Assembly (NCBI GenBank): GCA_000826855.1 | Contig: JTLS01000062.1 | Location: 1-35,878, forward strand | Length of the DNA: 35,878 nt | DNA from: Basidioascus undulatus | Lineage: Eukaryota | Direction of reading: 5' to 3' | Shown: piece by piece, positions 5,213-35,829 of the stretch | How positions within the stretch are numbered: position 1 is the first letter of the stretch | Layout of the letters: each line of letters opens with the position of its first letter | Position numbers and translations under genes: made by a program | The notes under the pieces: generated by a model | What the model saw: only the letters and a program-made list of their open reading frames with translations | Database searches by the model: none | Told to the model about the DNA's origin: nothing

Positions 5213-6588
5213 CTACTTCGCCGGTGCAGGGACGCTTGCCTTCGGCACCAGCCAAAGACCAGCCTGAATGAGCCTCAGCCCCGCGACAACCGCCATTCCG
5301 CCCCGTAGCCCGGCAGGCGAGAGCAGGAATGATTCGCCGATGCCTCCGCCGATACACAGGGAAACGATAGCGATCAGACGACTGCAGTAAACCGCGTCAG
5401 TTAAGTTAAGCTTTGACTCGGAAGGACATTAATTTACCGGTTGCGGCCTTTCACGGTCTTGGAGGGATGCAAGGCGAAGAGATAAGGATCAGAGGCGATT
5501 TCTGCCAATGAAACGCAGTCAGTCTCGGTCCGTTCTGATCCCAGGTATGAACGTACGGCTTAGGGTGGCGGTGAACGCGACCGTCTGAAGCGTGATTTGT
5601 TAGAACGCAAAGTTGCAGAAGAGCGGATAACCGGAGTGTACGCACAGTGGCAAAGGCCGGGCTGACGATCTTTTGTGCTTGGATGCTTTGCATGCCCATC
5701 GCGAACGCAGACTGGTTACATAACGATCAGCTTCACTTTTCGCACAAATTGGCAGGGAGTAAAGGACATACGCAAACAAGTACTGAAACGAACAACTGTC
5801 AGTCGAATCTTTCGTAGACAGTGGTAAGGAGTAAGACTGACCAACAGGTGTGTACCGGAATGTCGGGTCCTCGTCTTCGGGTCGCGACAGCAAGATTGCC
5901 GCAGCAATCCAGAGGACGACACTTTGTATAGAGCTGGTAAGGATAAGCCAAATCCGACGGCGGTCTCCGAGGGTCCGGCCTCCCAAGGCACCAAAAAAGG
6001 AACCCAAGAAGAAGGCGAGGACGGAGAGGATGCGCTCGAGCGTGAGCAGCGGGTATCGCTCAGAGCCGGGGATGATGTATTGCGCACTGGTAATACAGCG
6101 GCTTCAGTGGGGGCTTCAAACTTTTCATGGCGCAGAGAATACGTACACGTTTCCTGAAAACTGAACCATGTTGCTGCCTCGATCCCCGTCAATGCATCAC
6201 TACAACGGGCAAAACTTCAAAGATTGGCGCACCCCGTCTGGAAGCCCACCCAGACCTGCGTCTTGTGGTATAGAAGTGCGTCGATCATTCCTGTAGATTG
6301 AGGTTTTGGCTCAGCAACATAGGAAACATGCCGCAAAATTGTACTCTGCACCCGTGATGAAGACCTGCCACGCGAGTGGGACAGATGCGTCGGCATGGTC
6401 GACCTGCTCCTCCAGCCTGCGGAAAGAGGGTGCATTTTCAGCACATCATCCCCAACCGCACCCTATTATAATCTTTTCACATACCGCTCCCTCAACCAGC
6501 TCGTCCGTTGCAGAGTCACCTCAGACTCGCCCCCTCCGAGTCGCGCTCCTTGCTCCACTGAGTCCTGGTCGGGTGACACCGGGCTCAT
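5213..6588 (-). CDS. DUF1275 (YoaK-like) multi-pass membrane protein
   Basis: Exon peptides include VWVGFQTG(N), LAFFLGSFFGALGGRTLGDRRRIWLILTSSIQSVVLWIAAAIL, FAMGMQ..SPAFAT and RLIAIVSLCIGGGIG. These are hallmarks of fungal DUF1275 proteins. Several GT-AG introns; stop TAG at 5213-5215. Confidence 0.85.
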
Positions 6589-6972: not shown

Positions 6973-9034
6973 CTATCCACCTGCCCGGTCCAGCGCCCAT
7001 CCTCCGGAAGATCCGAACTGCGCTACACTCGAAGTAGGCGGTGGATGGGCCAGCCGCCGCGAGGGCGTTGAGTCGGAAGAGGAGAGCGTGAAGGGAGGGA
7101 GGAGCGCGGCCTGCGGGGTCGAACGCGAGACGCTGGGCGACTCTGCGCCATTCAGAGGCGTGGGACAGCTCCTCGGAACGAACGCTCGCTCGACAGGCTT
7201 GGGAAGAGGCGGAGGGAGGACGGCTGGCTTTGGAGGGGCTCGAGTCGGCGTGATGGGTACGCTCAGAGACGGCTCTTTTCCGGCAGCCGGGAGCGGGGGC
7301 AGCGAAACGTCGCTCTGAGGTGGGACGTCTTCCTGAAGACGAGCGGCAAGTATCTCGGCTCGTAGCGGCTCGCAGAAGAGGCGGTGTCTGTTGCCCATAG
7401 AGAGAGCTAGTTCAGCGACAAAATCACAGCTAGACCGCTGTGTTCATCGACGCGTACCTCACCCACTCTCGGGCCTGGCAGCTTTCGGAACAGTAGTAGG
7501 CGGCACCGCTACACAAGGAAAGGGTAAGTTGAGATGTCGTGCACTGGTATATTTGGAACGCTTGCCAGTTCGAGCACTGTTTCGAAGTGAACGGTCAGCA
7601 ACAGCGGAGTGAAGATGACTGCGGGTAACGGACCTTGTTAATCGTTGCAAGATCGAAGGACCGCTTCTCGCTCTCGCACTGCCACCCGCCTTCTAAGTTA
7701 GCCGTACCCGGGAGCCTTTGGTTCTGTAGCGTCTGTAACGCACGTAAGGCCATGCCCCGCAAACAAATCCTCCCCTCGCTCCAAATAGCCTGATGCTCTG
7801 AGCGTCTCCAGCGCGCCCGAGCGTCTCGTACAGCCGTCCGAGCAGCTCTCGAGTCTGTCCGGCCAGCTCGGCGTTCTGGACGAGAGAAGGAGAAAAGGAA
7901 CGCGAATGTGTTGGTAGCGAAGCCCGAAGGGAGAACGGGAGATTAACGAACGGCGATATCTTCCGCTCTGATGAGGAGCGCATGCAGCAGAGTCGCTTCG
8001 GCTTCGGGAAAGTTCCCCATCTGAAGCTATAAGGGACGAAGAGTGAGATCCCTAGTCGGGCAGCGCAGGCACTTTTTGTCCAGGTACTGACCTGAAGATA
8101 TCCAAGCTCCTGCAGCGACATGCCGATGGACGGATCAAGAGGGTGTAGCAGCCGGACTTTCATCTGCTCCACATCCCCTGGTTGAGTACTACTCAGAAGC
8201 ATGAAACTTAAAAAATGGCCTAACCTCCAGCGCAGCTTTGAGCAGCTGCTCGGCCTGTTCGAGATCCATGGCGGCCAGGCGGTTGCAGCCGTCTGCTTGC
8301 CCCGCCCGTCAGCAATAGACCGACATGCCGCGACCGCAAATGCAGAGAGGGGACATGCGCACATCGATGCAGCCTCAGCGCTTCTTTGACCTCTTCTTCG
8401 TGCGGCTTTGCGCCTTCCGGAAGCGGCAGCGGCGTCGGTACGGACTCTGGGGAGCTGTCGGGACTGGAGCGGGGGTGCGTCGAGGGAGCGTTGAGGGGGC
8501 TGGGGTCCTAAAGGAAAGGGAGTAGGAGTTTATTTTGTTACTTCCATTCTATATAGAGCGCCGGTAGGTGCAGGTCCACAGCCCTCCCCACAGACTCATC
8601 GCAGTCCGCCTCTACCTCCCATCGAGCTCCGCCAAAGAGATGGCCGTCTCGGATTTTGGAAGAAGCTCACGTGAAGGTCCGTAGAGTCTTTGAGGCGTTC
8701 TTTCCAGCTCAGGCCGCCGACCCAGCGGGGTGCACGAGCTCGCTTGTCGGGCCTGTCCACGAGACACCAGTGAAGAGTAAGTAATCTAGCTGCGACAGCT
8801 GCTCAGTTAGGGACACAAGACGATCAACTACCTGACATATTCTGCCTTGATCTGAGGCTTTGAGTAAGCTGGGGACAAACAAATCTTCTCAGTACTCCGT
8901 CGCCAGCTGCACAAGCGGCCTGGTGGCTCACCGCCCGTTGCGCCTTGCGTGATGGGCGACGCCCATGTGCTTGACCATCTCGGCGGATTGGATGAAGGCT
9001 GCTGGCTGCTGGAGTAGAACGCTGGTGTGCCCAT
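6973..9034 (-). CDS. TPR-like helical region + MYND zinc finger + Pro/Ser-rich tail
   Basis: Spliced peptides LEQAEQLLKAALE, SIGMSLQELGYLQ and GNFPEAEATLLHAL are TPR-like. FVCGAWP..WQCESEKRSFDLATINK-CSNCGAAYYCSESCQAREWVRHRLFC is a MYND finger and needs a GC-AG intron (7509-7565) and an 11-nt exon (7566-7576). The start codon is tentative. Confidence 0.75.
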
Positions 9035-9407
9035 TGCGGCTATGAGGCAGGCGATGGTGCAATTGGGATGATGGCGGTGGGAGCGGAGAAGGGACCTTGC
9101 GGGTGTGGTAAGCTGAGCAACGTGTCGGAGTCCGCCGACGACGATCAGCGGACTCGGGGCGGTCTAAGCATTCCGTCCACCGGGTATGCCTTCAACAGCC
9201 ATGGCGTTTCTTCCTAGATTTCAAGTTGGCATTGTGAAGTTTATTCACCCGCCAACAAGCATCAAAACAAGCATATTGGTCGTGAGAAGTCGTTACAGTC
9301 ATGAAACGAGAAACAGACTGGCCAAGAAGAAATGGGCACACAAATTCGTATAAGAAAGGGAACGGGAGAGTGGAAGAGTGTGGGAAGATGTAAAGCCCGG
9401 ACGTACA

Positions 9408-12400
9408 CTATGCGAGACTACGCAAATGGAGAGCTTGGTCAAGAGCATGGTAGAGCGACGGTACCCCGACTTCCGGGATGTAGCTGGCGTCCGACCCGGC
9501 AAGCTGCGCTGTGAACGCTTGCTCTTCGCTTGCGCTGCGGAAGAACGACCCGACCGTTGACCGCTGGTCCACTTGGCAAAGAGAGCGGATGCGGCTGATG
9601 GATGGGAAGAAGGTAAAGGCAGTCAGTGAAAACGCTACAAATTCAAGGGTCTGAACAGACCGCAGCGCACCTTGACAGCAGGACCTGACGCTGAGCGGAG
9701 GTAAAGGGGAGAAACGGAATAAGGAGGTCGATGAGCGGCTGAAGTGCAGGCTGCATGCCCTCAACCGTGTCATCAGCACACGACAGGAGAACTAGACTCT
9801 GAACGAAGCACTCACCCCGAAGTGTTGGGACAGCAGCCTCAACACAGCAGTCTCCAGATGCTTGGCTGTTGCGGTAGCCGATGCTGTCGAGACTTCCCCC
9901 TCGGCGCGAGTACCTTGAAGAATGGCGGTCCCGACGCGGGTCGTAACGATGAAGATAATACGGGAGACGTCGACTGGAACGCCCGTGCGACGATCCGTAT
10001 AGGCGCCTACAATCGGGTAAAATATAACAGCGGCTCAGTCCTCCACAGAGGCGAGGGGTTCAAACAGCCGTTTGGAGGTAGATGGACTAACCACTTCGAA
10101 CTCGAGAGAGGACGTCCACCAGGGTGAATGATCCATGGAGGCGCTCCGGCGGGTTTGTGAAAACGACGACTGCGCGCCGAGCGTGATGTGCCGTCAAGAA
10201 GTCGCCCAGGACCGAGCCCTACAGAAAAATAAAAAAAGAATCAGTTAAGAACAAAGAGGCAAGTTATGTAAATGAGGTTGCGCACGCGTTCATAGCCTGG
10301 CAACGGATACGGGATGCCGAAGAGTCCATGGTCTGTCAGAGGCTCGGTGTCCAGATCCAGCTGGAGCAGTCCGACACCGAGGGCGTTGGCAACTGAGTAG
10401 GTCGAGATTTCACGTTAGAAGGTTCTTGAGAAAGTGAGAGGTACAGAACTTACTGTGCGTTGAGAGTTGTCGCTTGCCATGGCCAGCCATGCCTTCGAAG
10501 GGATGACCGCGTCAGGTCGAGCTCGTACGACCAGTGCATTAGCGACAAAAACATACCGGAAAAGACAAGAACAACTGGATTAGGTCGACGTTGCTGGGAA
10601 TGTCCCGCGATAGACTCTGTGAGTGCAGCCGCCGCGTGTTCTTGACCAACGATTCCGATGGCTGCGTCGCCGAGGTTCTGGAGGCCAGCGTCCCGAAGTG
10701 CGCGCTCCAGCTGGGGGCGCAGGACGAGCTTCTGGGCCGTCTTCCACAGCAAGTACCTTCATAAAATGGGATTGGACGTCACTGTGTTTGTCCGCAAGAG
10801 GAAAGGCTGATAGCACTACGTACCGGATCTCCACAGTGAGGCGTTCCACCGAGTTACGCGCCAGAGCCGGCGTGCACCAGGCTGTCAAGATCTTTGGGGA
10901 CCGGTCGTCCACGCCTGACAGGGGCTGCGCGTACTTCTCCCATGCAGAACGCGGAATCACCCGAGGGTTCGCGTCGTACTGGAGCAGCAGCAGGACGATC
11001 GCAGCCCTATCGATGTCGTAGTCGCAAACGAGCGCGAACGCGAGCGGCGGAAGCGTTCCGGCTGGTCGCTCTATGGAAGCGCCATGCAGAAGACAAAAAC
11101 GGACGAGCTCGAGCCGTCCGGTCGCGATGGCCCAAAAGATGGGCGGAAAGCCGAAAAATGCGTCGTTGAGCAATGCGCTGCCATATGTCGCAGCCAGACG
11201 CTCGAGCTGCCTTGACACGGCGCCATCCGGGTCGGGCTGAAGAAAGAGTTGGACGAGGGCCTTGACCGGGCTGAGGGCCGAGCGCGATGTGGAGTTCGGA
11301 ATATCGGGGAGTAGGACAGCCAACGAGCTGGAGGTGGGCCGACTGCACCTCACAGCAGTCTGCGTCGCGGCCTGCCGAAAAGTTGTCGCTTAGATAAATT
11401 AATGCGAGATGGCTGAATGTGTGGACAAACCTCCGGCGAAGACCAAGCCCGACGCTGTAGAAATAAGCTGCCATGAGCAACGATTCCCTCTGCAGGTATG
11501 AGGAAGGTTTGAGAACTTGCAGTGGGAGGTCTCTGCTCGCGGACAACGAGATCTTGCCGTGCAGTGTGCCCCTCCACCTCGACTTCGCTGATTGCCATGC
11601 TCCCGAACGGAGGAAGAAGGCCTCCCGTCGAGAAAGAGTTAGGATCTCCCGGCGGCATGTGCCCTTGCGGCAGCATCTCGCGGTGAAGCCGATGCGATGT
11701 CTCCCAGATCGGGTTGAGGCCGGGGGCGACGGGTTGTGCGAAGGAATGCGCGCTTGTCGATATGCTTGACGCTGGCGAGATGAATTGCGATTGTGGTGAA
11801 GAGTGGATCTGAGCGGATCGTGCATCCAAATCTCGCAAATGAGCACAAGCACTTTCCGACGACTGACTGCTCTGGCTCACGTAGTCGCATTCTGGGCCAT
11901 ACTCGCAATGGCCGGCTATCCCAACAGCTCGGTCAAATAAAAGGTAGAGCTGGTGATGAGGAATATAGGTTACCGATCCAGTATTTGCATCTGGGTGAAT
12001 CCGTGGTCGTTAGTTGTACGTCAGATCGGCAAGCCAAGAAGAGAACACGCACACTTTCGTTCTCCACTTGGCGTGCTTGCCGGGAGGCATCGTCGGCGAG
12101 ACTGTATGATGGCTAGTACCGGGCGCGTCGTATTGGATACGAAGCGGTGCGAGAGGAGGAGGATGAACCGCGGGAGGGCGGCGTGGAGGGGTTATGGGGA
12201 GACGCGGGATTTTGGATGGTGGCTGGGTGTAATAGCCCGGCTGCGGGGGAGAGACACGAGCCATCTGCTGTGGAAGAGCCGGGGCGTGATCTGCAGAGAA
12301 TGCTTAAATCTCACCAGCCATTGTCAAGAACATGTATGAGAAGACGTACGCAGAAATGAGCAAGCCTCGCCAGACGGACAGAGGCCAGCTGGACCCGTTC

Positions 12401-12757
12401 TATCAGCATGAGCAGCGGCCTTTCCACTATCAAAGACTTTTTCAAACTCACAGCGATTCCAGAACTTGCAGACACGAGTGCGCCAGTTGCGGTCCGGCGG
12501 GTCAGATGCTTTGGATCTGTCGAACGAGTTCCGAATTAAGCATCACATTTCACGATGCGAACGTCGATCCTTCCCGCTTCACTTACTCGTGGCCCATGAT
12601 GTGCAGGAAATTGCAGGCGTCACCGTCAGGACAGGTGCTGCTGCTCTGCCAGAACCTGCAGGGGCGAGCTGTAGGAAATGTGATCGTCAGTCTTACCGTC
12701 CACAAACACGCATCATCGTAGCTCACTCCTCCAGTTGTTCAGTCTTTGAGGTTCCAT
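9408..12757 (-). CDS. Triple CCCH zinc finger + ankyrin-like + degenerate ClpB/Skd3-type AAA+ protein
   Basis: Phase-consistent exons 12727-12757, 12587-12668, 12452-12516, 12350-12388, 12053-12290, 11974-11990, 11881-11915 and 11431-11808 continue from 11371 into ORF 10580-11353. They give three CCCH fingers, an ankyrin-like region (PPIFWAIATGRLELVRFCLLHGA; PPLAFAL..IVLLLLQYDANP) and ClpB-D2-like segments (IVGQEHA, PVVLVFSGMAGHGK, LFG..PGY, YTDRRTG..VDVSRIIFIVTT, LIPFLPF). Confidence 0.8.
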
Positions 12758-13624
12758 GAGAAGATTCCGACACTCGAGAAGGCAATCAATCAATAAGATG
12801 CGGTATAGGATGATCGAGCAGCCGAGAACGAGAAGGCAAAAGCGATCGAGTAGGCAAGGGGATCTAGCGCCACAGCCTCCGAAGTGAAGCGATCCTTATG
12901 AGCGCGAGCATTCGAAGGTCGTTGTTTGAAGAAGTGGGGCAAGTTCGGTCAGCTCAAAGCTTCTGATGGGGCCAGGATACATTGAACGCGTCTGCGAACG
13001 ACGAAAAACTCGTTGGAGCCGAAGATGCATTCGCGAGATGGTGAGAGGACGAAGCGAGGAAGCGCATCAAAACGCCACGGCAGCAAGTGCAAGGTTTAAT
13101 TAAGGGGATGAGTTGTTGATTGGGCCGCGCGTAAGTCCTGTTGCACGACTCGAGGGAGGCAAGGTGAGGCACGGTGTGCGAAAGCATGTCATGGGGCACG
13201 CCGCGTTCCCAACGTTCAGCTTGAAATGCCCGAACCACGTGTTTTATCTTACCTATCTTACCGCCGGCTGCTGCGGGACTTTTCACTGAATGTGCTTAAA
13301 CGTTCAGCGATTGGCGAGCTTATCTGGTACAGCTTCAGCACAGCGAGCTTCGAGCTAGCGATGCTAGTGATGCGCTGGGCGAATCGTGAAGAGAAGTGAA
13401 ATCATGCGTAACGTTATTGCGTACACGGTATCGGGAAGAAAGAAGAAAAGTCAAGACTATGTCGCGCTGCGACTCAAAAAGACCTAACAAGGCGGAGATA
13501 AAAGACCTCAAAGTGTTCATTCTGTGCACCTCGCTTTCGATCAGACGTGCCCCTGTGACTCGCTCTCCGAACCAATCGACGCACCAAAAGCACACACCCA
13601 TGTCCGTTGGTCCTACCCGACCGG

Positions 13625-17110: not shown

Positions 17111-18296
17111 TTACACTGCGGACGACCCGTTCTGTCAGCCTTTGTCACTTATTCGACGGAAAGAAGCGGGACTGACTGAGGTTGAGGTCGCCGACTGTTC
17201 ACGCCCACCCACCCGGCAGTCAGCACACCACGTCCTACCTGGCCAACAAAGAAGACGAAAAACGAACACTTCTCCTTGTACTGTACAGAGAATGCGAAAA
17301 GTGAGCTAACGGCCTGTTGTCGAGGGGAGGAACTATGCACGTACGCCCGGCACGGTCCACTTGCCCTTCTTGAGCATCTCGCCGATGGACTTGACCATCT
17401 GAGGGCGGGCCTGCGCAACCTCGTCGGTCTGGCAAAGGCACATTGTCAGTGAGCGGCACGAGAAAGAGGGATCACGGGGGAACTTGTGTGCGCACGGTAA
17501 GCTGGTCGAACGGCCGGGCCTGCTCGATGTTGGCGAGGGTGGCCTGCAGGTCCTTGAGCTCGGCGTCGATCTTCTTCTCAGTGGAGACGGCAGCCTCGAC
17601 CTGGAGTGAGGAGGAGTGATGCGAGTGAGCATGTGAGGCGGGATAGAGTGGACGTGTTGGAGCTAGGTTGTCGTGTTCCATCTTGCAATATGCGTCCCAC
17701 GCAGCCGCCCAACCATCTCGGTTGGCCCAACACACTCTTGCCACACCAAAGCCGCCTTGCTGCCGTCTGCCCCCTCCGCCGCCCCTCGTACCCTCCGTCC
17801 TGAGATTCCATCGCACGACTCACAGCCTTGGCCTCGAACGCGTCAATGGCTTTCTCGACGGCCTTGACGTCGTAGGTCACGGCCTTGAACTCCTTGAGGG
17901 TGCGCTCAGCCTCGTCGACAACGGCCTTGTTCTTGAGGATGGAGCGGTAGTGGGCGATGTCGACGTCGGTCTTCTGCTCCTGGAGCTGGGAGAGCACGCG
18001 CTTGGCGTCCTCGTTGCGCTTGCGGAAGGACTGGAGCGCGGCGATGGTCTCTGTTGAAAAACGATTCCACGTTCAGTCATCCCCAACACCCGCTCTAACA
18101 GCGAGAAGCCAACTGGAACGCACCCTTGCCGAGGCCAAGGGAAGAGTAGATGCGCGAGAAGTCCTGGCCAGCGAATCCCCAGCATCAGCACCCCTGTTCT
18201 TCCGCCCCGGGTTCTCCACGCTGCTGCATCAGCGTAAATATATTATTCGGATGATCGACTGACGACGGCGGCGCGGGTGACCCGAGTAACCTGCAT
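17111..18296 (-). CDS. ATP7: Mitochondrial F1Fo ATP synthase subunit d
   Basis: Peptides DFSRIYSSLGLGKETIAALQSFRKRNEDA, VDIAHYRSILKNKAVVDE, LKDLQATLANIEQARPFDQLT and KGKWTVPGYKEKFGDLNLM*, spread over about 8 exons. Confidence 0.95.
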
Positions 18297-21654: not shown

Positions 21655-23261
<1,607 letters not shown>

Positions 23262-33111: not shown

Positions 33112-35829
33112 TTACTCCTGGATGGACAGCGCCGCAACAGCGTCCTGCACGCCCGTGCTCACGTCCGCGAGCTCGCCGGTCTCGGTCTGCGCAATCACTG
33201 CAGAACATACGTTATCAGCACGGAGAAAGTGGACGATGTCAACGCGTATCCTCGACATACGCTTGGTGACCTTGCCGATGGCGATCGTCTTCCCTTCGTC
33301 GCGGAGCGTGAACCGGCCGAGCTGCGGGTAGTCGGCGAAGCGCTCCATGCAGATCGCGCCCGTCGCCTCGATGAGCGCGACAATCTTCTGGCCTGTGTGA
33401 TTGATACCGCAGCGACTCAGCTTCACAAAATCGCCTCCTATCTGCCACGACTCTTCCGATACGCACCCTTCTTGGCGAACTGGGGCGGCTTCTTCGACTT
33501 GCGGCCAGTCTTCTTGTCGTAGTAGTGCAGCAGAGCCTGTCATTGCGCCCACAAATGCAAAGTCAGCGAATCGCGGATGGCCATCACCTCTTTCCTCACT
33601 CCCGACTTACGGAAAGCGTGATCTCCTCCGCAGCAGTGTGGATGTGCATGACGGCGCTGTAGCCCGCGCAGATGATGTTCTTGTGGTCGAGGATAGCGAG
33701 CTGTGCCTCGAACTGGCGGACAGTCTTGACGGGCTTGGATGGGTCCGTGAGAACGAAACCGGGCTGGACGGCCTCGTCCTCGACGCCACGGAGGCGGATC
33801 CGGACGTTGTCACCACAGAGCGCGACCTGCGTCTCCTCCTCCATCTCGTTCTCGATCGCTTGCACTTCGACGATTTCCTGAACGCGCGCCGATCGAGACC
33901 AGCGGTAAGCTGCGTTGGACTGCGAAGCACCAATATTAGACATACCTTGTTGGGCATGAGCATGAGCTTGTCGTTGACCCGGAGCTTGCCGGACTCGATC
34001 TTGCCGACGACGATGGTGCCCATGTCCTTGTACTTGTCCGAGATGGGCATCATGAGCGGAGCCGATATCTTGCGATCGACGATGGGCATCGCGTCGAGGA
34101 AGGGGATGAGGGCGGGACCGCTGCACGGAACCCGACGCACGGCGTTAGGACACCAAAAAGTGTAAAGGCCCAGAGTAGAAAGGGGAGAACAGGGAAAGGA
34201 GCTCAATACGCACTCATACCACGGTGCGTCCGCCTTCTTAACGACCTCCTTGAGGTTTGCGCCGGTGTAGGCCGAGACGGGGATGTAGGTGATGTCCGTC
34301 TTCGGGTTAAAGCCGGTGCCGCGCAGGAAGGGCGTAAGCTTGTCGTGGATCTCGTCGTACCTGGCGCCACGTAGGACTCCTCGTTAGCGGTTGCCGCTGG
34401 CTGCGATAGAGAATATAAGGTGTACTCACCGAGCCTTGTCCCAGCGGACGGTCGGGTCGTCCATCTTGTTGACAACGACGATGAGCTTCTGCACACCCGC
34501 CGTCTTGACAAGCATCGCGTGCTCGCGCGTCTGGCCGCCCTTCTCGAAACCGGTCTCGAACTCCCCCTTGCGCGCGGAGATGACCTGCACAGCGCCCGCA
34601 CGTCGACGTAAGCTCGTTGTTCCCGACTCCGCCTGAAAACAATGGGAAGCGTGACATACCAGCACGGCAACGTCCGCCTGCGCCGCACCCGAGATCATGC
34701 TCGGCACGAACGTCTTGTGACCGGGAGCGTCGAGGATGGTGTACCGCCGTGTGGAAGTCTCGAAGTACGCACGACCGACTTCGACCGTCTTGCCCTGTTG
34801 GACCCCACATGCTCAACTTGTCAGACCCCGCTTGGAGCAAATGACAGATCGGAAATGACACGGACCTTGGCGCGCTCCTGCGGCGTCGAGTCGAGCGCCC
34901 AGGAGAGGTACCAGCTCTCACGACCGGCCTCCTTGGCATCGCGCTCGTACTTCTCCATCGTACGCTTGTCGACCATGCCGGTCAGGTAGAGCAGCTGGCC
35001 ACCCATGGTCCTGCAGTGCCATAAAACAAGTTCAGCCAAGTTTTCCAGCTGAACGATCGCCGTTGATGCCGCAGAAGAGGCCAAATGTAAATGGAGGGAG
35101 ACGCACGACTTGCCGGCATCGACGTGCCCGCAGAAGACGATGTTGAGGTGCTGCTTGGCTGGCGGGATCGGAACCGAGACGTGTGAGCAGGTAGCGAGGT
35201 CGAAGGGGAAAGGGGGCGAGACGCACGAACTGCACCATCCGTGCCGAAGAGGTCCTTGAGCGTCTCTTCGTCCGCAGCGGCAGACGTCTCGCGGAGGATT
35301 TGGTCCTAGATCCGACCATTCCGCCGTCAGCCTCTCCCGCCCTTCGCAGTGTTATCGCAGACAGCCAAGTAAAGTCAGCACTCACCGCCTTAGCCTGAGC
35401 AGCCGCGATGGCGGCCTTGCTCGGGGCAGCGGCAGACTTGGAAGCGCCCTTGGAAGCAGAGGCGACAGGGGCGGCAGCAGCGGGTGCGGCGGCCTTGGGA
35501 GCAGCAGGAGCGGCAGCGGGGGCAGGGGTAGACGGCTTGGACGGAGCGGAGGAAGAGGAAGCGGGGGTGGCAGGGACGTCTGCCTTTTTGGGGGCGGGAG
35601 AAGTGGGAGCAGGGGAGGCGGTGGGCTTGGGCTTGGAGCCGCCGATAGAGAGGGAGATGGTGGCGGGCTTGACGTTCTCCTCCTTTGGCGAGGCCGGAGC
35701 GGGAGCGGGGGCGGGAAGCTTGGAGCCACCGATTGAGAGCGAGATAGTCGGGGGCGGAGCGGGAGCGGGGGCAGCGTCGTCGACGGGCTTGCGCTCGAAG
35801 GGCTGAGCGGGAGCGGCGGGTGCGGAGGG
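33112..35829 (-). CDS. SUP35: Eukaryotic release factor 3 GTPase (partial; 5' end beyond the window)
   Basis: Motifs [108 protein letters not shown]. Pro/Ala-rich M region. The window ends inside an intron. Confidence 0.96.

What the first reader, a model, noticed from the sequence alone, without database searches (positions are those of the whole stretch)
9408..12757. Hidden fusion gene: three CCCH zinc fingers + ankyrin-like region + ClpB/Skd3-type AAA+ module
Seen in sequence: eight short exons with canonical GT-AG sites and consistent phases spell NWRTRPCRFWQSSSTCPDGDACNFLH, NWRTRVCKFWNRSGLCPSGEACSFLH and KWRTKVCKYWIAGHCEYGPECDYIH (C-x8/x8/x7-C-x5-C-x3-H, each with a WRT[RK] lead-in). None of these fingers appears in the ORF track. 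After a Pro/Ser linker, intron 11372-11430 joins them in frame to the ankyrin-like ORF and the ClpB-D2-like exons. Established: CCCH fingers with a (K/R)YKTxL-type lead-in (TTP/Cth2 class) bind RNA, and ankyrin plus a single ClpB-type AAA+ domain is the Skd3/CLPB architecture, with related proteins in fungi. Inference: I do not know this combination from any characterised protein. It could be an RNA-sensing oligomeric scaffold or RNP remodeller, possibly with a defence or granule role.
Basis: partly seen in the sequence, partly recalled or inferred. Interest (0 to 1): 0.88.

Follow-up and report, generated by a model that had tools for sequence, protein, structure and literature searches.

The report
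Triple zinc-finger, ATPase-dead Skd3-like gene
This is a real, intron-rich fungal gene that joins three RNA-type zinc fingers to an ankyrin plus ClpB-like module; mushrooms commonly have this unstudied design, but this copy has lost the residues needed to use ATP.

Summary
On the minus strand, 12757..9408, 16 exons and 15 GT-AG introns (58-85 nt) give an uninterrupted 787-codon frame. It encodes three CCCH fingers, a Pro/Ser linker, about three ankyrin-like repeats and a ClpB-D2/Skd3-type AAA+ module.

The fusion is supported by comparison, not by RNA. A profile of 54 full-length Agaricomycete proteins matches the model at both ends, in order. Exon 9 contains no methionine.

Two parts of the interpretation fail.
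- The architecture is not unknown. 59 of 120 Agaricomycete relatives carry an N-terminal CCCH finger, and at least 23 are named "C3H1-type domain-containing protein". My searches found no characterised member.
- This copy cannot be an ATP-driven remodeller. Walker A Thr/Ser, Walker B Asp-Glu, sensor-1 Asn, the Arg finger and the sensor-2 Arg are all replaced. These are conserved in 124-126 of 126 relatives.

Best reading: an RNA-binding pseudo-ATPase scaffold or regulator. It is a three-finger, catalytically dead variant of an uncharacterised fungal Skd3-like family. Expression is untested.

The parts
9408..12757 (-). Whole gene model: 16 exons, 15 GT-AG introns, 2364-nt CDS, 787 aa. Exons, written high to low: 12757-12727, 12668-12587, 12516-12452, 12388-12350, 12290-12053, 11990-11974, 11915-11881, 11808-11431, 11371-10824, 10756-10557, 10492-10454, 10392-10286, 10218-10092, 10006-9816, 9750-9671, 9594-9408.
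   Evidence: model, phases, intron ends. (GC of exons against introns). (collinear match to relatives).
12601..12736 (-). CCCH finger 1 (aa 8-33), split by intron 1 (12726-12669). It is the counterpart of the single N-terminal finger of the Agaricomycete relatives.
   Evidence: Pfam zf-CCCH 32.6 bits on exon 2 alone. 23.0 bits on the family finger profile. PDB matches to TTP-type tandem fingers, CPSF4 and TIS11d.
12289..12488 (-). CCCH finger 2 (aa 48-73), spread over exons 3, 4 and 5 (introns 12451-12389 and 12349-12291).
   Evidence: Spliced translation. 17 of 26 residues identical to finger 1. 11.5 bits on the family finger profile.
11803..12072 (-). CCCH finger 3 (aa 146-171, C-x7-C-x5-C-x3-H), spread over exons 5, 6 (17 nt), 7 and 8 (introns 12052-11991, 11973-11916, 11880-11809).
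   Evidence: Spliced translation. Only 3.6 bits on the family finger profile, which is not significant. The spacing and lead-in are read directly from the sequence.
11321..11802 (-). Ser/Pro-rich linker (aa 172-312), crossing intron 8 (11430-11372). This intron joins the finger half to the ANK-AAA half in phase 0.
   Evidence: Intron 8 starts GTTTGT, ends CAG and has GC 0.42, against 0.59 and 0.63 in the flanking exons. Exon 8 has no Pfam match.
10937..11269 (-). Ankyrin-like region (about three helix-pair repeats, aa ~330-440), inside exon 9.
   Evidence: Pfam Ank_3 23.5 bits, cut-off 22.3. AlphaFold2 model of exon 9 has pLDDT 84. Every listed Foldseek PDB hit is an ankyrin-repeat protein, but E is 0.018-0.07 and none reaches 0.001.
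9843..10674 (-). AAA+ large subdomain (ClpB-D2/Skd3 type, aa ~506-690), in exons 10-14, with degenerate motifs. Walker A G-H-G-K-R is at 10557-10470 (spans intron 10). The Walker B place V-V-V-F-T-N is at 10170-10150. The sensor-1 place T-T-R is at 9950-9933.
   Evidence: Every substituted motif lies inside a single exon, so none depends on a splice choice.
9411..9842 (-). Region at the ClpB_D2-small place (aa ~691-787), in exons 14-16. The Arg-finger place reads Q-P-L (9741-9730). The sensor-2 place reads G-V-P-S (9467-9456) where relatives have G-A-R-S.
   Evidence: ClpB_D2-small is found by Pfam in 29 of 75 relatives. It was not found in the window's own exon pieces.

Best explanation
One protein-coding gene on the minus strand (12757..9408) encodes a 787-aa protein. 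From N to C it has:
- two closely spaced CCCH fingers and a third one,
- a Ser/Pro-rich linker,
- about three ankyrin-like repeats,
- a single ClpB-D2/Skd3-type AAA+ module.

It is a divergent member of an uncharacterised fungal family with an ankyrin-like region plus AAA_2. The basidiomycete branch of that family carries an N-terminal TTP-like CCCH finger.

This copy differs in two ways. It has three fingers instead of one. It has also replaced every residue class needed for ATP hydrolysis, while keeping most structural positions.

Most likely mechanism (inferred):
- The fingers bind single-stranded RNA, as TTP/TIS11 and CPSF30 fingers do.
- The ankyrin plus pseudo-AAA+ body serves as a nucleotide-independent protein-interaction or oligomerisation platform.
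- The protein would then act as an RNA-bound scaffold. Alternatively it could be a regulator or decoy of ATP-active relatives. It would not act as a motor.

Shown here: gene structure, domain content, family membership and loss of the catalytic motifs. Inferred: RNA binding, oligomerisation, any partner, and expression.
For: Gene model:
- 15 canonical introns and an intact 2364-nt frame.
- Exon GC 0.57-0.63 against intron mean 0.475.

Fusion:
- The profile of 54 full-length Agaricomycete proteins matches finger 1 (aa 9-35) and ANK+AAA (aa 371-732) in the same order.
- 59 of 120 such proteins have a CCCH finger, 54 of them within the first 40 residues.
- Methionines occur only at aa 1, 35, 82, 140, 214, 220, 240 and 546. 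Exon 9, where family homology begins at about aa 306-313, therefore cannot start a protein.

Family membership:
- 203 bits against the 75-sequence profile A1.
- In the tree the model is sister to all 78 Agaricomycete sequences, support 1.0.

Skd3 likeness of the family:
- The A1 profile scores 154.7 bits on human CLPB, against 114 on the next best, ClpC1.
- The AlphaFold2 model of relative P0181 has Skd3/CLPB as all ten top Foldseek hits, E 1e-19 to 1e-15.

Dead ATPase:
- 46 columns are at least 90% conserved in 126 relatives. The model keeps 28 of them.
- It loses all 5 catalytic columns: Walker B Asp 126/126, Glu 125/126, sensor-1 Asn 124/126, Arg 126/126 and GAR Arg 126/126.
- It loses 13 of the other 41 columns, hypergeometric p = 0.006.
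- The Walker A Thr/Ser position is Arg.

Fingers of the RNA-binding type:
- Exon 2 matches solved TTP-type tandem fingers (9y10, E 3.6e-7), CPSF4 (1.8e-5), TIS11d (3.5e-5) and TTP (5.8e-4).
Against: - No transcript evidence of any kind: no RNA run was listed.
- No close orthologue was found, so purifying selection (dN/dS) could not be measured.
- The terminal branch is very long, 2.0 against a median of 0.137. This fits relaxed constraint or decay, and it makes the tree placement sensitive to long-branch effects.
- Fingers 2 and 3, and the AAA+ module of the spliced protein, could not be scored against Pfam. Joined sequences cannot be submitted, so they rest on my local profiles.
- AAA_2 on the window's own exon pieces reaches only 14.5 bits, cut-off 27.
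- Finger 3 does not match the family finger profile (3.6 bits).
- RNA binding, oligomerisation and the existence of an active paralogue are untested. No genome is held for this window.
Confidence: 0.6

Rival explanations
1. One reading: an ATP-driven RNP remodeller or disaggregase that uses the fingers to find RNA-protein substrates and the AAA+ ring to unfold or remodel them.
For: - The family body is Skd3/ClpB-D2-like.
- Relatives keep intact Walker A and B: 185 and 164 of 194, the remainder being truncated calls.
- The G-H-G-K part of the P-loop is retained here, so nucleotide binding is not excluded.
Against: - Walker A Thr/Ser is Arg.
- Walker B Asp-Glu is Thr-Asn.
- Sensor-1 Asn is Arg.
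- The Arg finger is Leu.
- The sensor-2 Arg is Pro.
- Each change lies inside a single exon.
- These positions are conserved in 124-126 of 126 relatives.
Confidence: 0.05
2. Two adjacent genes on the same strand: a small CCCH-finger protein ending near 11350 through retention of intron 8, and a separate ANK-AAA gene with its own start.
For: - Retaining intron 8 gives a stop 26 codons later.
- In-frame methionines at aa 214, 220 and 240 in exon 8 could start a shorter ANK-AAA product.
- Ascomycete relatives mostly lack a finger: 73 of 75 have no CCCH match.
- There is no RNA evidence either way.
Against: - Exon 8 is a 378-nt open frame continuous with finger 3.
- Intron 8 has canonical ends, phase 0 and a GC dip to 0.42.
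- There is no methionine in exon 9.
- No non-coding gap is left for a terminator and a promoter.
- Finger 1 and the ANK-AAA body occur in one polypeptide in at least 59 Agaricomycete proteins and in P0198. The model matches that profile at both ends.
Confidence: 0.1
3. A decaying or functionless duplicate: a former active family member that lost its ATPase and is drifting, whether or not it is still transcribed.
For: - All catalytic residues are lost.
- 18 of 46 highly conserved columns are changed.
- The terminal branch is about 15 times the median.
- No close orthologue was found in 5.8 billion clustered proteins, 1.84 billion representatives or the metagenome contigs.
Against: - There is no stop or frameshift in 787 codons spread over 16 exons, and all 15 introns keep GT-AG.
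- 28 of 46 conserved, mostly structural, columns are kept, against about 25% overall identity. The losses are concentrated on catalytic columns, p = 0.006. This is the pattern of a pseudoenzyme rather than of uniform drift.
- Finger number has increased, and all three fingers keep perfect ligand spacing.
Confidence: 0.15

Closest known systems
Agaricomycete 'C3H1-type domain-containing protein' / 'AAA+ ATPase domain-containing protein' family (for example P0224 of Mycena venus, P0286 of Galerina marginata); automatic annotation only
   Same: - An N-terminal CCCH finger with the same lead-in and end (W-R-x-K-T-R-P-C ... C-N-F-L-H).
- A low-complexity linker, a short ankyrin-like region and an AAA_2 module, in the same order.
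- The model is sister to this clade in the tree.
   Different: - They have one finger: 0 of the 59 with a finger have more than one.
- Their linker is about 600-1200 aa, against about 140 aa here.
- They have an intact P-loop (G-P-S-G-H-G-K-S) and Walker B Asp-Glu.
- Identity to the model is only about 24-26%.
Human Skd3/CLPB (the 'ANKCLP' fusion), a mitochondrial intermembrane-space disaggregase
   Same: - Ankyrin repeats sit N-terminal to a single ClpB-D2-type AAA+ domain.
- It is the best solved match of the fungal family by profile: 154.7 bits, against 114 for ClpC1.
- It is also the best match by fold: the top 10 Foldseek hits to the P0181 model.
   Different: - The window's product begins with a zinc finger seven residues after the start codon, where Skd3 has a targeting sequence (Skd3 organisation recalled).
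- The catalytic motifs are lost here.
- The ankyrin part of the profile did not align to the Skd3 ankyrin region as a separate stretch.
- Orthology is untested, because no Skd3 sequence was available for a tree.
- Published passages place the origin of this fusion in choanoflagellates or stem holozoans (PMC7343390 and PMC4339202; passages read).
Pezizomycotina ankyrin-like + AAA_2 + ClpB_D2-small proteins ('P-loop containing nucleoside triphosphate hydrolase protein'). This is probably orthogroup OG0007227, which was set aside in a Sordariales NLR survey.
   Same: - The same ANK-like/AAA_2 body: 26-29% identity over about 400-450 residues, E down to 1.5e-36.
- The N-terminal additions vary: Clr5 in 1, UBA_4 in 2 and CCCH in 2 of 75. 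These are the domains named for OG0007227 (PMC12258605; one passage read).
   Different: - They mostly have no finger.
- Their Walker A (G-H-G-K-T) and Walker B Asp-Glu are invariant in 75 of 75.
- The model does not group with them.
TTP/TIS11 tandem CCCH zinc-finger (TZF) domain
   Same: - C-x8-C-x5-C-x3-H fingers.
- Fingers 1 and 2 form a close pair.
- Best PDB matches are 9y10 (E 3.6e-7), 1rgo (3.5e-5) and 1m9o (5.8e-4).
   Different: - The gap between fingers 1 and 2 is 20 residues. The TZF gap is 18 residues, as seen in 9y10 and 1rgo, where the fingers lie at 10-29/48-68 and 9-28/47-66.
- The lead-in is not (R/K)YKTEL.
- There is a third, distant C-x7 finger.
- The rest of the protein is unrelated.
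ClpB/Hsp104/ClpC second nucleotide-binding domain (HCLR clade AAA+)
   Same: The family profile matches D2 domains at 95-114 bits over the whole AAA+ module, including the small subdomain.
   Different: - There is a single AAA+ domain, with no N-domain, D1 or middle domain.
- This copy lacks all the catalytic motifs.

Membership tests
zf-CCCH (Pfam PF00642) | Score above the Pfam gathering cut-off | tested here: met
   Finger 1 (exon 2 alone): 32.6 bits, cut-off 20.5. Fingers 2 and 3 span introns. They could not be scored against Pfam because joined sequences cannot be submitted.
zf-CCCH (Pfam PF00642) | Ligand spacing C-x7/8-C-x5-C-x3-H | tested here: met
   All three fingers in the spliced translation have it: x8, x8 and x7.
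TTP/TIS11 tandem zinc-finger family | Two fingers 18 residues apart, each preceded by (R/K)YKTEL (definition recalled) | tested here: not met
   The gap is 20 residues and the lead-in is N-W-R-T-R-[PV]. Only the register (aromatic, basic, Thr) is shared.
Ankyrin repeats | Pfam ankyrin model above cut-off | tested here: met
   Ank_3 scores 23.5 bits, cut-off 22.3, for one repeat. Ank, Ank_2 and Ank_4 fall below their cut-offs.
Ankyrin repeats | Stacked helix-turn-helix repeat fold | tested here: inconclusive
   The AlphaFold2 model of exon 9 has pLDDT 84 and three helix pairs. Every listed Foldseek hit is an ankyrin-repeat protein over about 105-117 columns, but E is 0.018-0.07 and none is at or below 0.001.
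AAA+ ATPase, ClpB-D2 / AAA_2 type | Sequence homology of the whole module | tested here: met
   203 bits against the family profile, aa 313-779. 75 of 75 family members match Pfam AAA_2. The window's own exon 14 alone reaches only 14.5 bits, cut-off 27.
AAA+ ATPase, ClpB-D2 / AAA_2 type | Walker A G-x4-G-K-[ST] | tested here: not met
   It reads G-M-A-G-H-G-K-R. 185 of 194 relatives match the motif.
AAA+ ATPase, ClpB-D2 / AAA_2 type | Walker B hhhh-D-E | tested here: not met
   It reads V-V-V-F-T-N. Asp is present in 126 of 126 and Glu in 125 of 126 relatives with a complete module.
AAA+ ATPase, ClpB-D2 / AAA_2 type | Sensor-1 Asn, Arg finger and sensor-2 Arg (G-A-R). Names of these positions are recalled from ClpB. 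| tested here: not met
   Asn (124/126) is Arg. Arg (126/126) is Leu. Arg of G-A-R (126/126) is Pro.
Skd3/CLPB (ANKCLP) | Ankyrin repeats N-terminal to a single ClpB-type AAA+ domain | tested here: met
   Domain order in the model. For the family.
Skd3/CLPB (ANKCLP) | Orthology (common origin of the fusion) and mitochondrial targeting | not tested
   No tree with Skd3 could be built, because no Skd3 sequence was available to the scripts. No targeting prediction was run. The product starts with a zinc finger.
Skd3/CLPB (ANKCLP) | ATP-dependent disaggregase activity | not testable with these tools
   The catalytic motifs are absent, so activity is not expected.
Fungal CCCH + ANK-like + AAA_2 family (Agaricomycete 'C3H1-type domain-containing protein') | N-terminal finger of the family type together with the C-terminal ANK-like/AAA_2 body in one polypeptide, in that order | tested here: met
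   The full-length family profile hits aa 9-35 and aa 371-732 collinearly. The finger profile gives 23.0 bits. The model is sister to the clade, support 1.0. That it is one polypeptide rests on the predicted intron 8, not on RNA.

The most novel reading that the evidence does not exclude
Fungi carry a Skd3-type lineage (ankyrin plus a single ClpB-D2 AAA+ domain) that the literature assigns to holozoans only. In basidiomycetes this lineage is wired to RNA through a TTP-like CCCH finger, which would make it an RNA-directed disaggregase or remodeller family. The gene in this window would be its first pseudo-ATPase derivative. It would have triplicated its fingers, lost catalysis and now act as an RNA-bound regulator, cap or decoy of the active machines, or as a static RNP scaffold.
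Probability: 0.3. Interest if true: 0.65.

Novelty: new variant of a known kind. Interest (0 to 1): 0.42.

Why it matters
- It shows that a well-formed 16-exon gene, invisible to ORF scanning, can be recovered from raw sequence.
- It puts the 'novel fusion' in context. CCCH finger plus ankyrin-like plus AAA_2 is a recurrent, automatically annotated and apparently unstudied fungal family. It is Skd3-like in sequence and fold. That bears on the published view that the ankyrin-ClpB fusion arose in the holozoan stem.
- This copy is the only one of 127 comparable sequences with every catalytic motif replaced while the frame and the structural core are kept. It is a candidate pseudo-AAA+ with RNA-binding fingers.
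- If expressed, it would be a natural separation-of-function allele. It could show what the non-catalytic parts of this family do.

Tried and rejected
- RNA evidence: no RNA holder was listed for window 9300-12900.
- Whole genome: none is held for this window, so a search for an active paralogue was impossible. tblastn of seven relatives found no second copy in the window.
- Word-index search with exon 9, 'longer' lengths: only one weak generic ankyrin hit.
- Exhaustive HMMER search with exon 9: 966 hits, nearly all generic ankyrin proteins. Only P0129 of the 150 listed also matched the AAA part.
- Single AAA exons against PDB: only Lon at E about 0.8, or nothing.
- Metagenome contig scan with exon 9: 313 pattern matches, none confirmed.
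- Earlier findings of this scan: nothing by place, sequence or words.
- The sigma-70 promoter and intrinsic-terminator scan is a bacterial model. It gave counts at the shuffle level and says nothing about a fungal gene.
- Literature: searches found no paper describing a CCCH-AAA_2 fungal protein. The closest is a one-sentence exclusion of an ankyrin-AAA orthogroup. Supplements were not opened.
- Considered and rejected: that the missing catalytic residues are splice artefacts. Each lies within one exon.
- Considered and rejected: that dead relatives were hidden by my filter. The 68 sequences left out are truncated gene calls ending before or just after Walker B.


Full report
**1. What is in the sequence**

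The feature lies on the minus strand. I read 8800-13600, printed the reverse complement and built a splice model independently.
- The ATG is at 12757 and the TAG at 9410-9408.
- There are 16 exons and 15 introns. Every intron is GT...AG and 58-85 nt long.
- The CDS is 2364 nt with no internal stop, giving 787 aa.
- Exons 1-8 encode three CCCH fingers (aa 8-33, 48-73, 146-171; spacings x8, x8 and x7) with a W-R-T-[RK] lead-in.
- Between fingers 2 and 3 is a stretch with 29% Pro. After finger 3 comes a linker rich in Ser (16%) and Pro (11%).
- Exon GC is 0.57-0.63, lower in the 17- and 31-nt mini-exons. Every intron is lower, at 0.33-0.54 with a mean of 0.475.

**2. Is it more than chance?**

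- Finger 1 sits almost entirely in exon 2. That exon alone passes Pfam zf-CCCH at 32.6 bits, cut-off 20.5.
- It is the only unspliced CCCH pattern in the six frames of the 35.9-kb window.
- Finger 2 needs introns 3 and 4. It then reproduces finger 1 at 17 of 26 positions.
- Finger 3 needs three introns, including a 17-nt exon. Unspliced, the frame hits a stop shortly after the lead-in.
- As a control I spliced all 14,515 GT..AG pairs of 45-100 nt in the window. This gave one unrelated junction-spanning CCCH pattern and three artefactual variants of finger 1.
- Exons 9-16 are validated by homology. The spliced product aligns without breaks to P0129 (26% identity, aa 306-741, E 2e-35) and to a 75-sequence family profile (203 bits, aa 313-779).

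**3. Finding the relatives**

- Pieces of the gene are poor queries. Exon 9 gave only generic ankyrin proteins in the word-index search. It did so in almost all of the 150 listed hits of the exhaustive search.
- Local phmmer with the spliced C-terminal part picked out one true relative among those hits, P0129.
- P0129 carries AAA_2 at 57 bits.
- Searching with P0129 gave 154 hits. I took 75 of them as the family. The rest listed were bacterial ClpB/ClpC/ClpA/Lon proteins.
- These 75 come mostly from Pezizomycotina. All 75 match AAA_2. Among them, 29 match ClpB_D2-small and 8 match Ank_2. Clr5 occurs in 1, UBA_4 in 2, and a CCCH model in 1.
- A CCCH pattern is present in 2 of the 75: P0198 and P0224 of Mycena venus, which its source names 'C3H1-type domain-containing protein'.
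- Searching with the ANK/AAA part of P0224 gave 135 hits, of which 120 were listed. All the named ones are Agaricomycetes, and they are 561-1719 aa long.
- At least 23 rows carry the source name 'C3H1-type domain-containing protein'.
- 59 of the 120 have a CCCH pattern, 54 of them within the first 40 residues. None has more than one.
- Four of the proteins lacking a pattern begin inside the finger, and three more keep the lead-in but break off.

**4. One gene or two?**

There is no RNA evidence, because no RNA run was listed. Several lines of evidence favour one gene.
- A profile of 54 full-length Agaricomycete proteins hits the model at both ends in the right order. The finger (profile 16-41) matches aa 9-35, and ANK/AAA (profile 819-1177) matches aa 371-732.
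- A profile of their N-terminal fingers scores finger 1 at 23.0 bits and finger 2 at 11.5 bits. It hits only the exon-2 ORF among the 1014 ORFs of the window.
- The product has methionines only at aa 1, 35, 82, 140, 214, 220, 240 and 546. Exon 9, where family homology starts, has none.
- Exon 8 is a 378-nt open frame continuous with finger 3.
- Intron 8 is canonical and phase 0, with GC 0.42.
- A shorter isoform could arise from a start at aa 214-240, and a finger-only isoform from retention of intron 8 (stop 26 codons on). Neither can be excluded.

I put the single fused gene at about 0.85.

**5. What the C-terminal body is**

- Exon 9 passes Pfam Ank_3 at 23.5 bits, cut-off 22.3.
- Folded with the family alignment, it gives a confident model (pLDDT 84, pTM 0.80) with three helix pairs.
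- Every listed Foldseek hit is an ankyrin-repeat protein. However, E is 0.018-0.07 and none reaches 0.001.
- The family profile A1 finds human CLPB/Skd3 first in the PDB at 154.7 bits. ClpC1 follows at 114, Hsp104 at 113 and ClpB D2 at 106.
- A model of relative P0181 (pLDDT above 90 for residues 190-734) has Skd3/CLPB chains as all ten top Foldseek hits. The alignments of 503-531 columns include the ankyrin part.
- Passages I read in two papers place the origin of the ankyrin-ClpB fusion in choanoflagellates or the holozoan stem (PMC7343390; PMC4339202).
- I could not build a tree with Skd3, so common origin against convergence stays open.
- One passage of a Sordariales NLR survey sets aside an orthogroup with ankyrin repeats N-terminal to an AAA domain plus UBA_4, Clr5 and ClpB_D2-small (PMC12258605). 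That matches the ascomycete branch seen here.

**6.

- In the 75-sequence alignment, G-H-G-K of the P-loop and the Walker B Asp-Glu are invariant.
- I aligned the model with the 126 relatives that have a complete module. That is 126 of 194; the other 68 are truncated gene calls.
- 46 columns are at least 90% conserved. The model keeps 28 of them and differs at 18.
- The five catalytic columns are all changed:
  - Walker B Asp (126/126) is Thr.
  - Walker B Glu (125/126) has no acidic counterpart.
  - Sensor-1 Asn (124/126) is Arg.
  - The Arg aligned with the ClpB D2 arginine finger (126/126) is Leu.
  - The Arg of G-A-R (126/126) is Pro.
- The Walker A Thr/Ser is Arg.
- That is 5 of 5 catalytic columns lost, against 13 of 41 others (hypergeometric p = 0.006).
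- Each change lies inside one exon, so none is a splicing artefact.
- The names sensor 1, Arg finger and sensor 2 for these columns are recalled from ClpB. They were not computed here.
- In a FastTree of 139 sequences (406 columns, rooted on 12 bacterial Clp D2 domains), the model is sister to all 78 Agaricomycete sequences, with support 1.0.
- Its terminal branch is 2.0, against a median of 0.137. The long branch is itself a caveat for the placement.

**7. How it most likely works**

Established knowledge (recalled): CCCH fingers of the TTP/TIS11 and CPSF30 type bind single-stranded RNA. Walker B Glu, sensor 1 and the Arg finger are required for hydrolysis in ClpB-type AAA+ proteins.

Shown here:
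- Finger 1 is most like those RNA-binding fingers: 9y10 at E 3.6e-7, CPSF4 at 1.8e-5, TIS11d at 3.5e-5 and TTP at 5.8e-4.
- Fingers 1 and 2 form a pair 20 residues apart. The solved tandem fingers that finger 1 matched are 18 apart.
- The AAA+ body keeps its structural positions but lacks the catalytic ones.

Inference: the protein binds RNA through its fingers and uses the ankyrin plus pseudo-AAA+ body as a nucleotide-hydrolysis-independent interaction or oligomerisation module. It would be a scaffold, or a regulator or decoy for active relatives, if the genome has any. Confidence in this overall reading is 0.6.

Rivals:
- An active remodeller (0.05).
- Two genes (0.10).
- A decaying relic (0.15). 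The intact 16-exon frame and the selective pattern of loss argue against it. The long branch and the lack of any close orthologue argue for it.

**8. Verdict**

- The gene is a real fusion of CCCH fingers, an ankyrin-like region and an Skd3-like AAA+ module.
- The architecture is already widespread and automatically annotated in Agaricomycetes.
- No paper describing the architecture turned up in my searches. I did not open supplements.
- What is new at this locus is the three-finger, short-linker, catalytically dead form, the only such one among 127 comparable sequences.
- I rate it a new variant of a known but unstudied kind, with interest 0.42.

The source organism is not identified. The intron density and the tree suggest a basidiomycete outside the sampled Agaricomycetes, but that is inference.

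Noticed in passing
Relatives P0129, P0152-P0225 and P0271-P0389 (not in the window): The fungal ankyrin-like + AAA_2 family matches human Skd3/CLPB better than any other solved AAA+ protein. By profile it scores 154.7 bits, against 114 for ClpC1. By fold, the top ten Foldseek hits are all Skd3/CLPB. Passages read in PMC7343390 and PMC4339202 date the ankyrin-ClpB fusion to choanoflagellates or stem holozoans. Whether the fungal family shares that origin is open.
   Followed up: partly
P0283, P0284, P0288, P0358 (start inside the finger); P0287, P0292, P0354 (lead-in present, finger broken): Several public Agaricomycete gene models of this family appear to have mis-called N-termini. They seem to miss the intron-split exons of the CCCH finger, so the finger is probably more common than the 59 of 120 counted.
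   Followed up: partly
P0167 (Clr5 N-terminus), two relatives with UBA_4, P0198 (CCCH in an ascomycete-type member): The N-terminal region ahead of the ankyrin-like repeats is a swap site for different small domains across the family. This suggests adaptor-like targeting of a common ANK-AAA body.
   Followed up: no
window 17581-18072 (-), 22346-23107 (-), 5603-6103 (-), 33610-34383 (-): The neighbouring ORF fragments match housekeeping families: mitochondrial ATP synthase D chain, isocitrate/isopropylmalate dehydrogenase, DUF1275 and EF-Tu domain 2 (the last below its cut-off). All appear as short exon-sized pieces. This looks like an ordinary intron-rich chromosomal region, with no sign of a mobile element or gene cluster around the finding.
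   Followed up: partly
window 11974-11990 (-) and 12727-12757 (-): The gene has very small exons (17 nt and 31 nt) and 15 introns in 3.35 kb. This intron density is more typical of basidiomycetes than of most ascomycetes (recalled), and it fits the tree placement.
   Followed up: no
window 12389-12451 (-) and 11809-11880 (-): Introns 3 (63 nt) and 7 (72 nt) are multiples of three with no in-frame stop. Retaining them would keep the frame open but would destroy finger 2 or finger 3. That is a possible route to isoforms with fewer functional fingers.
   Followed up: no
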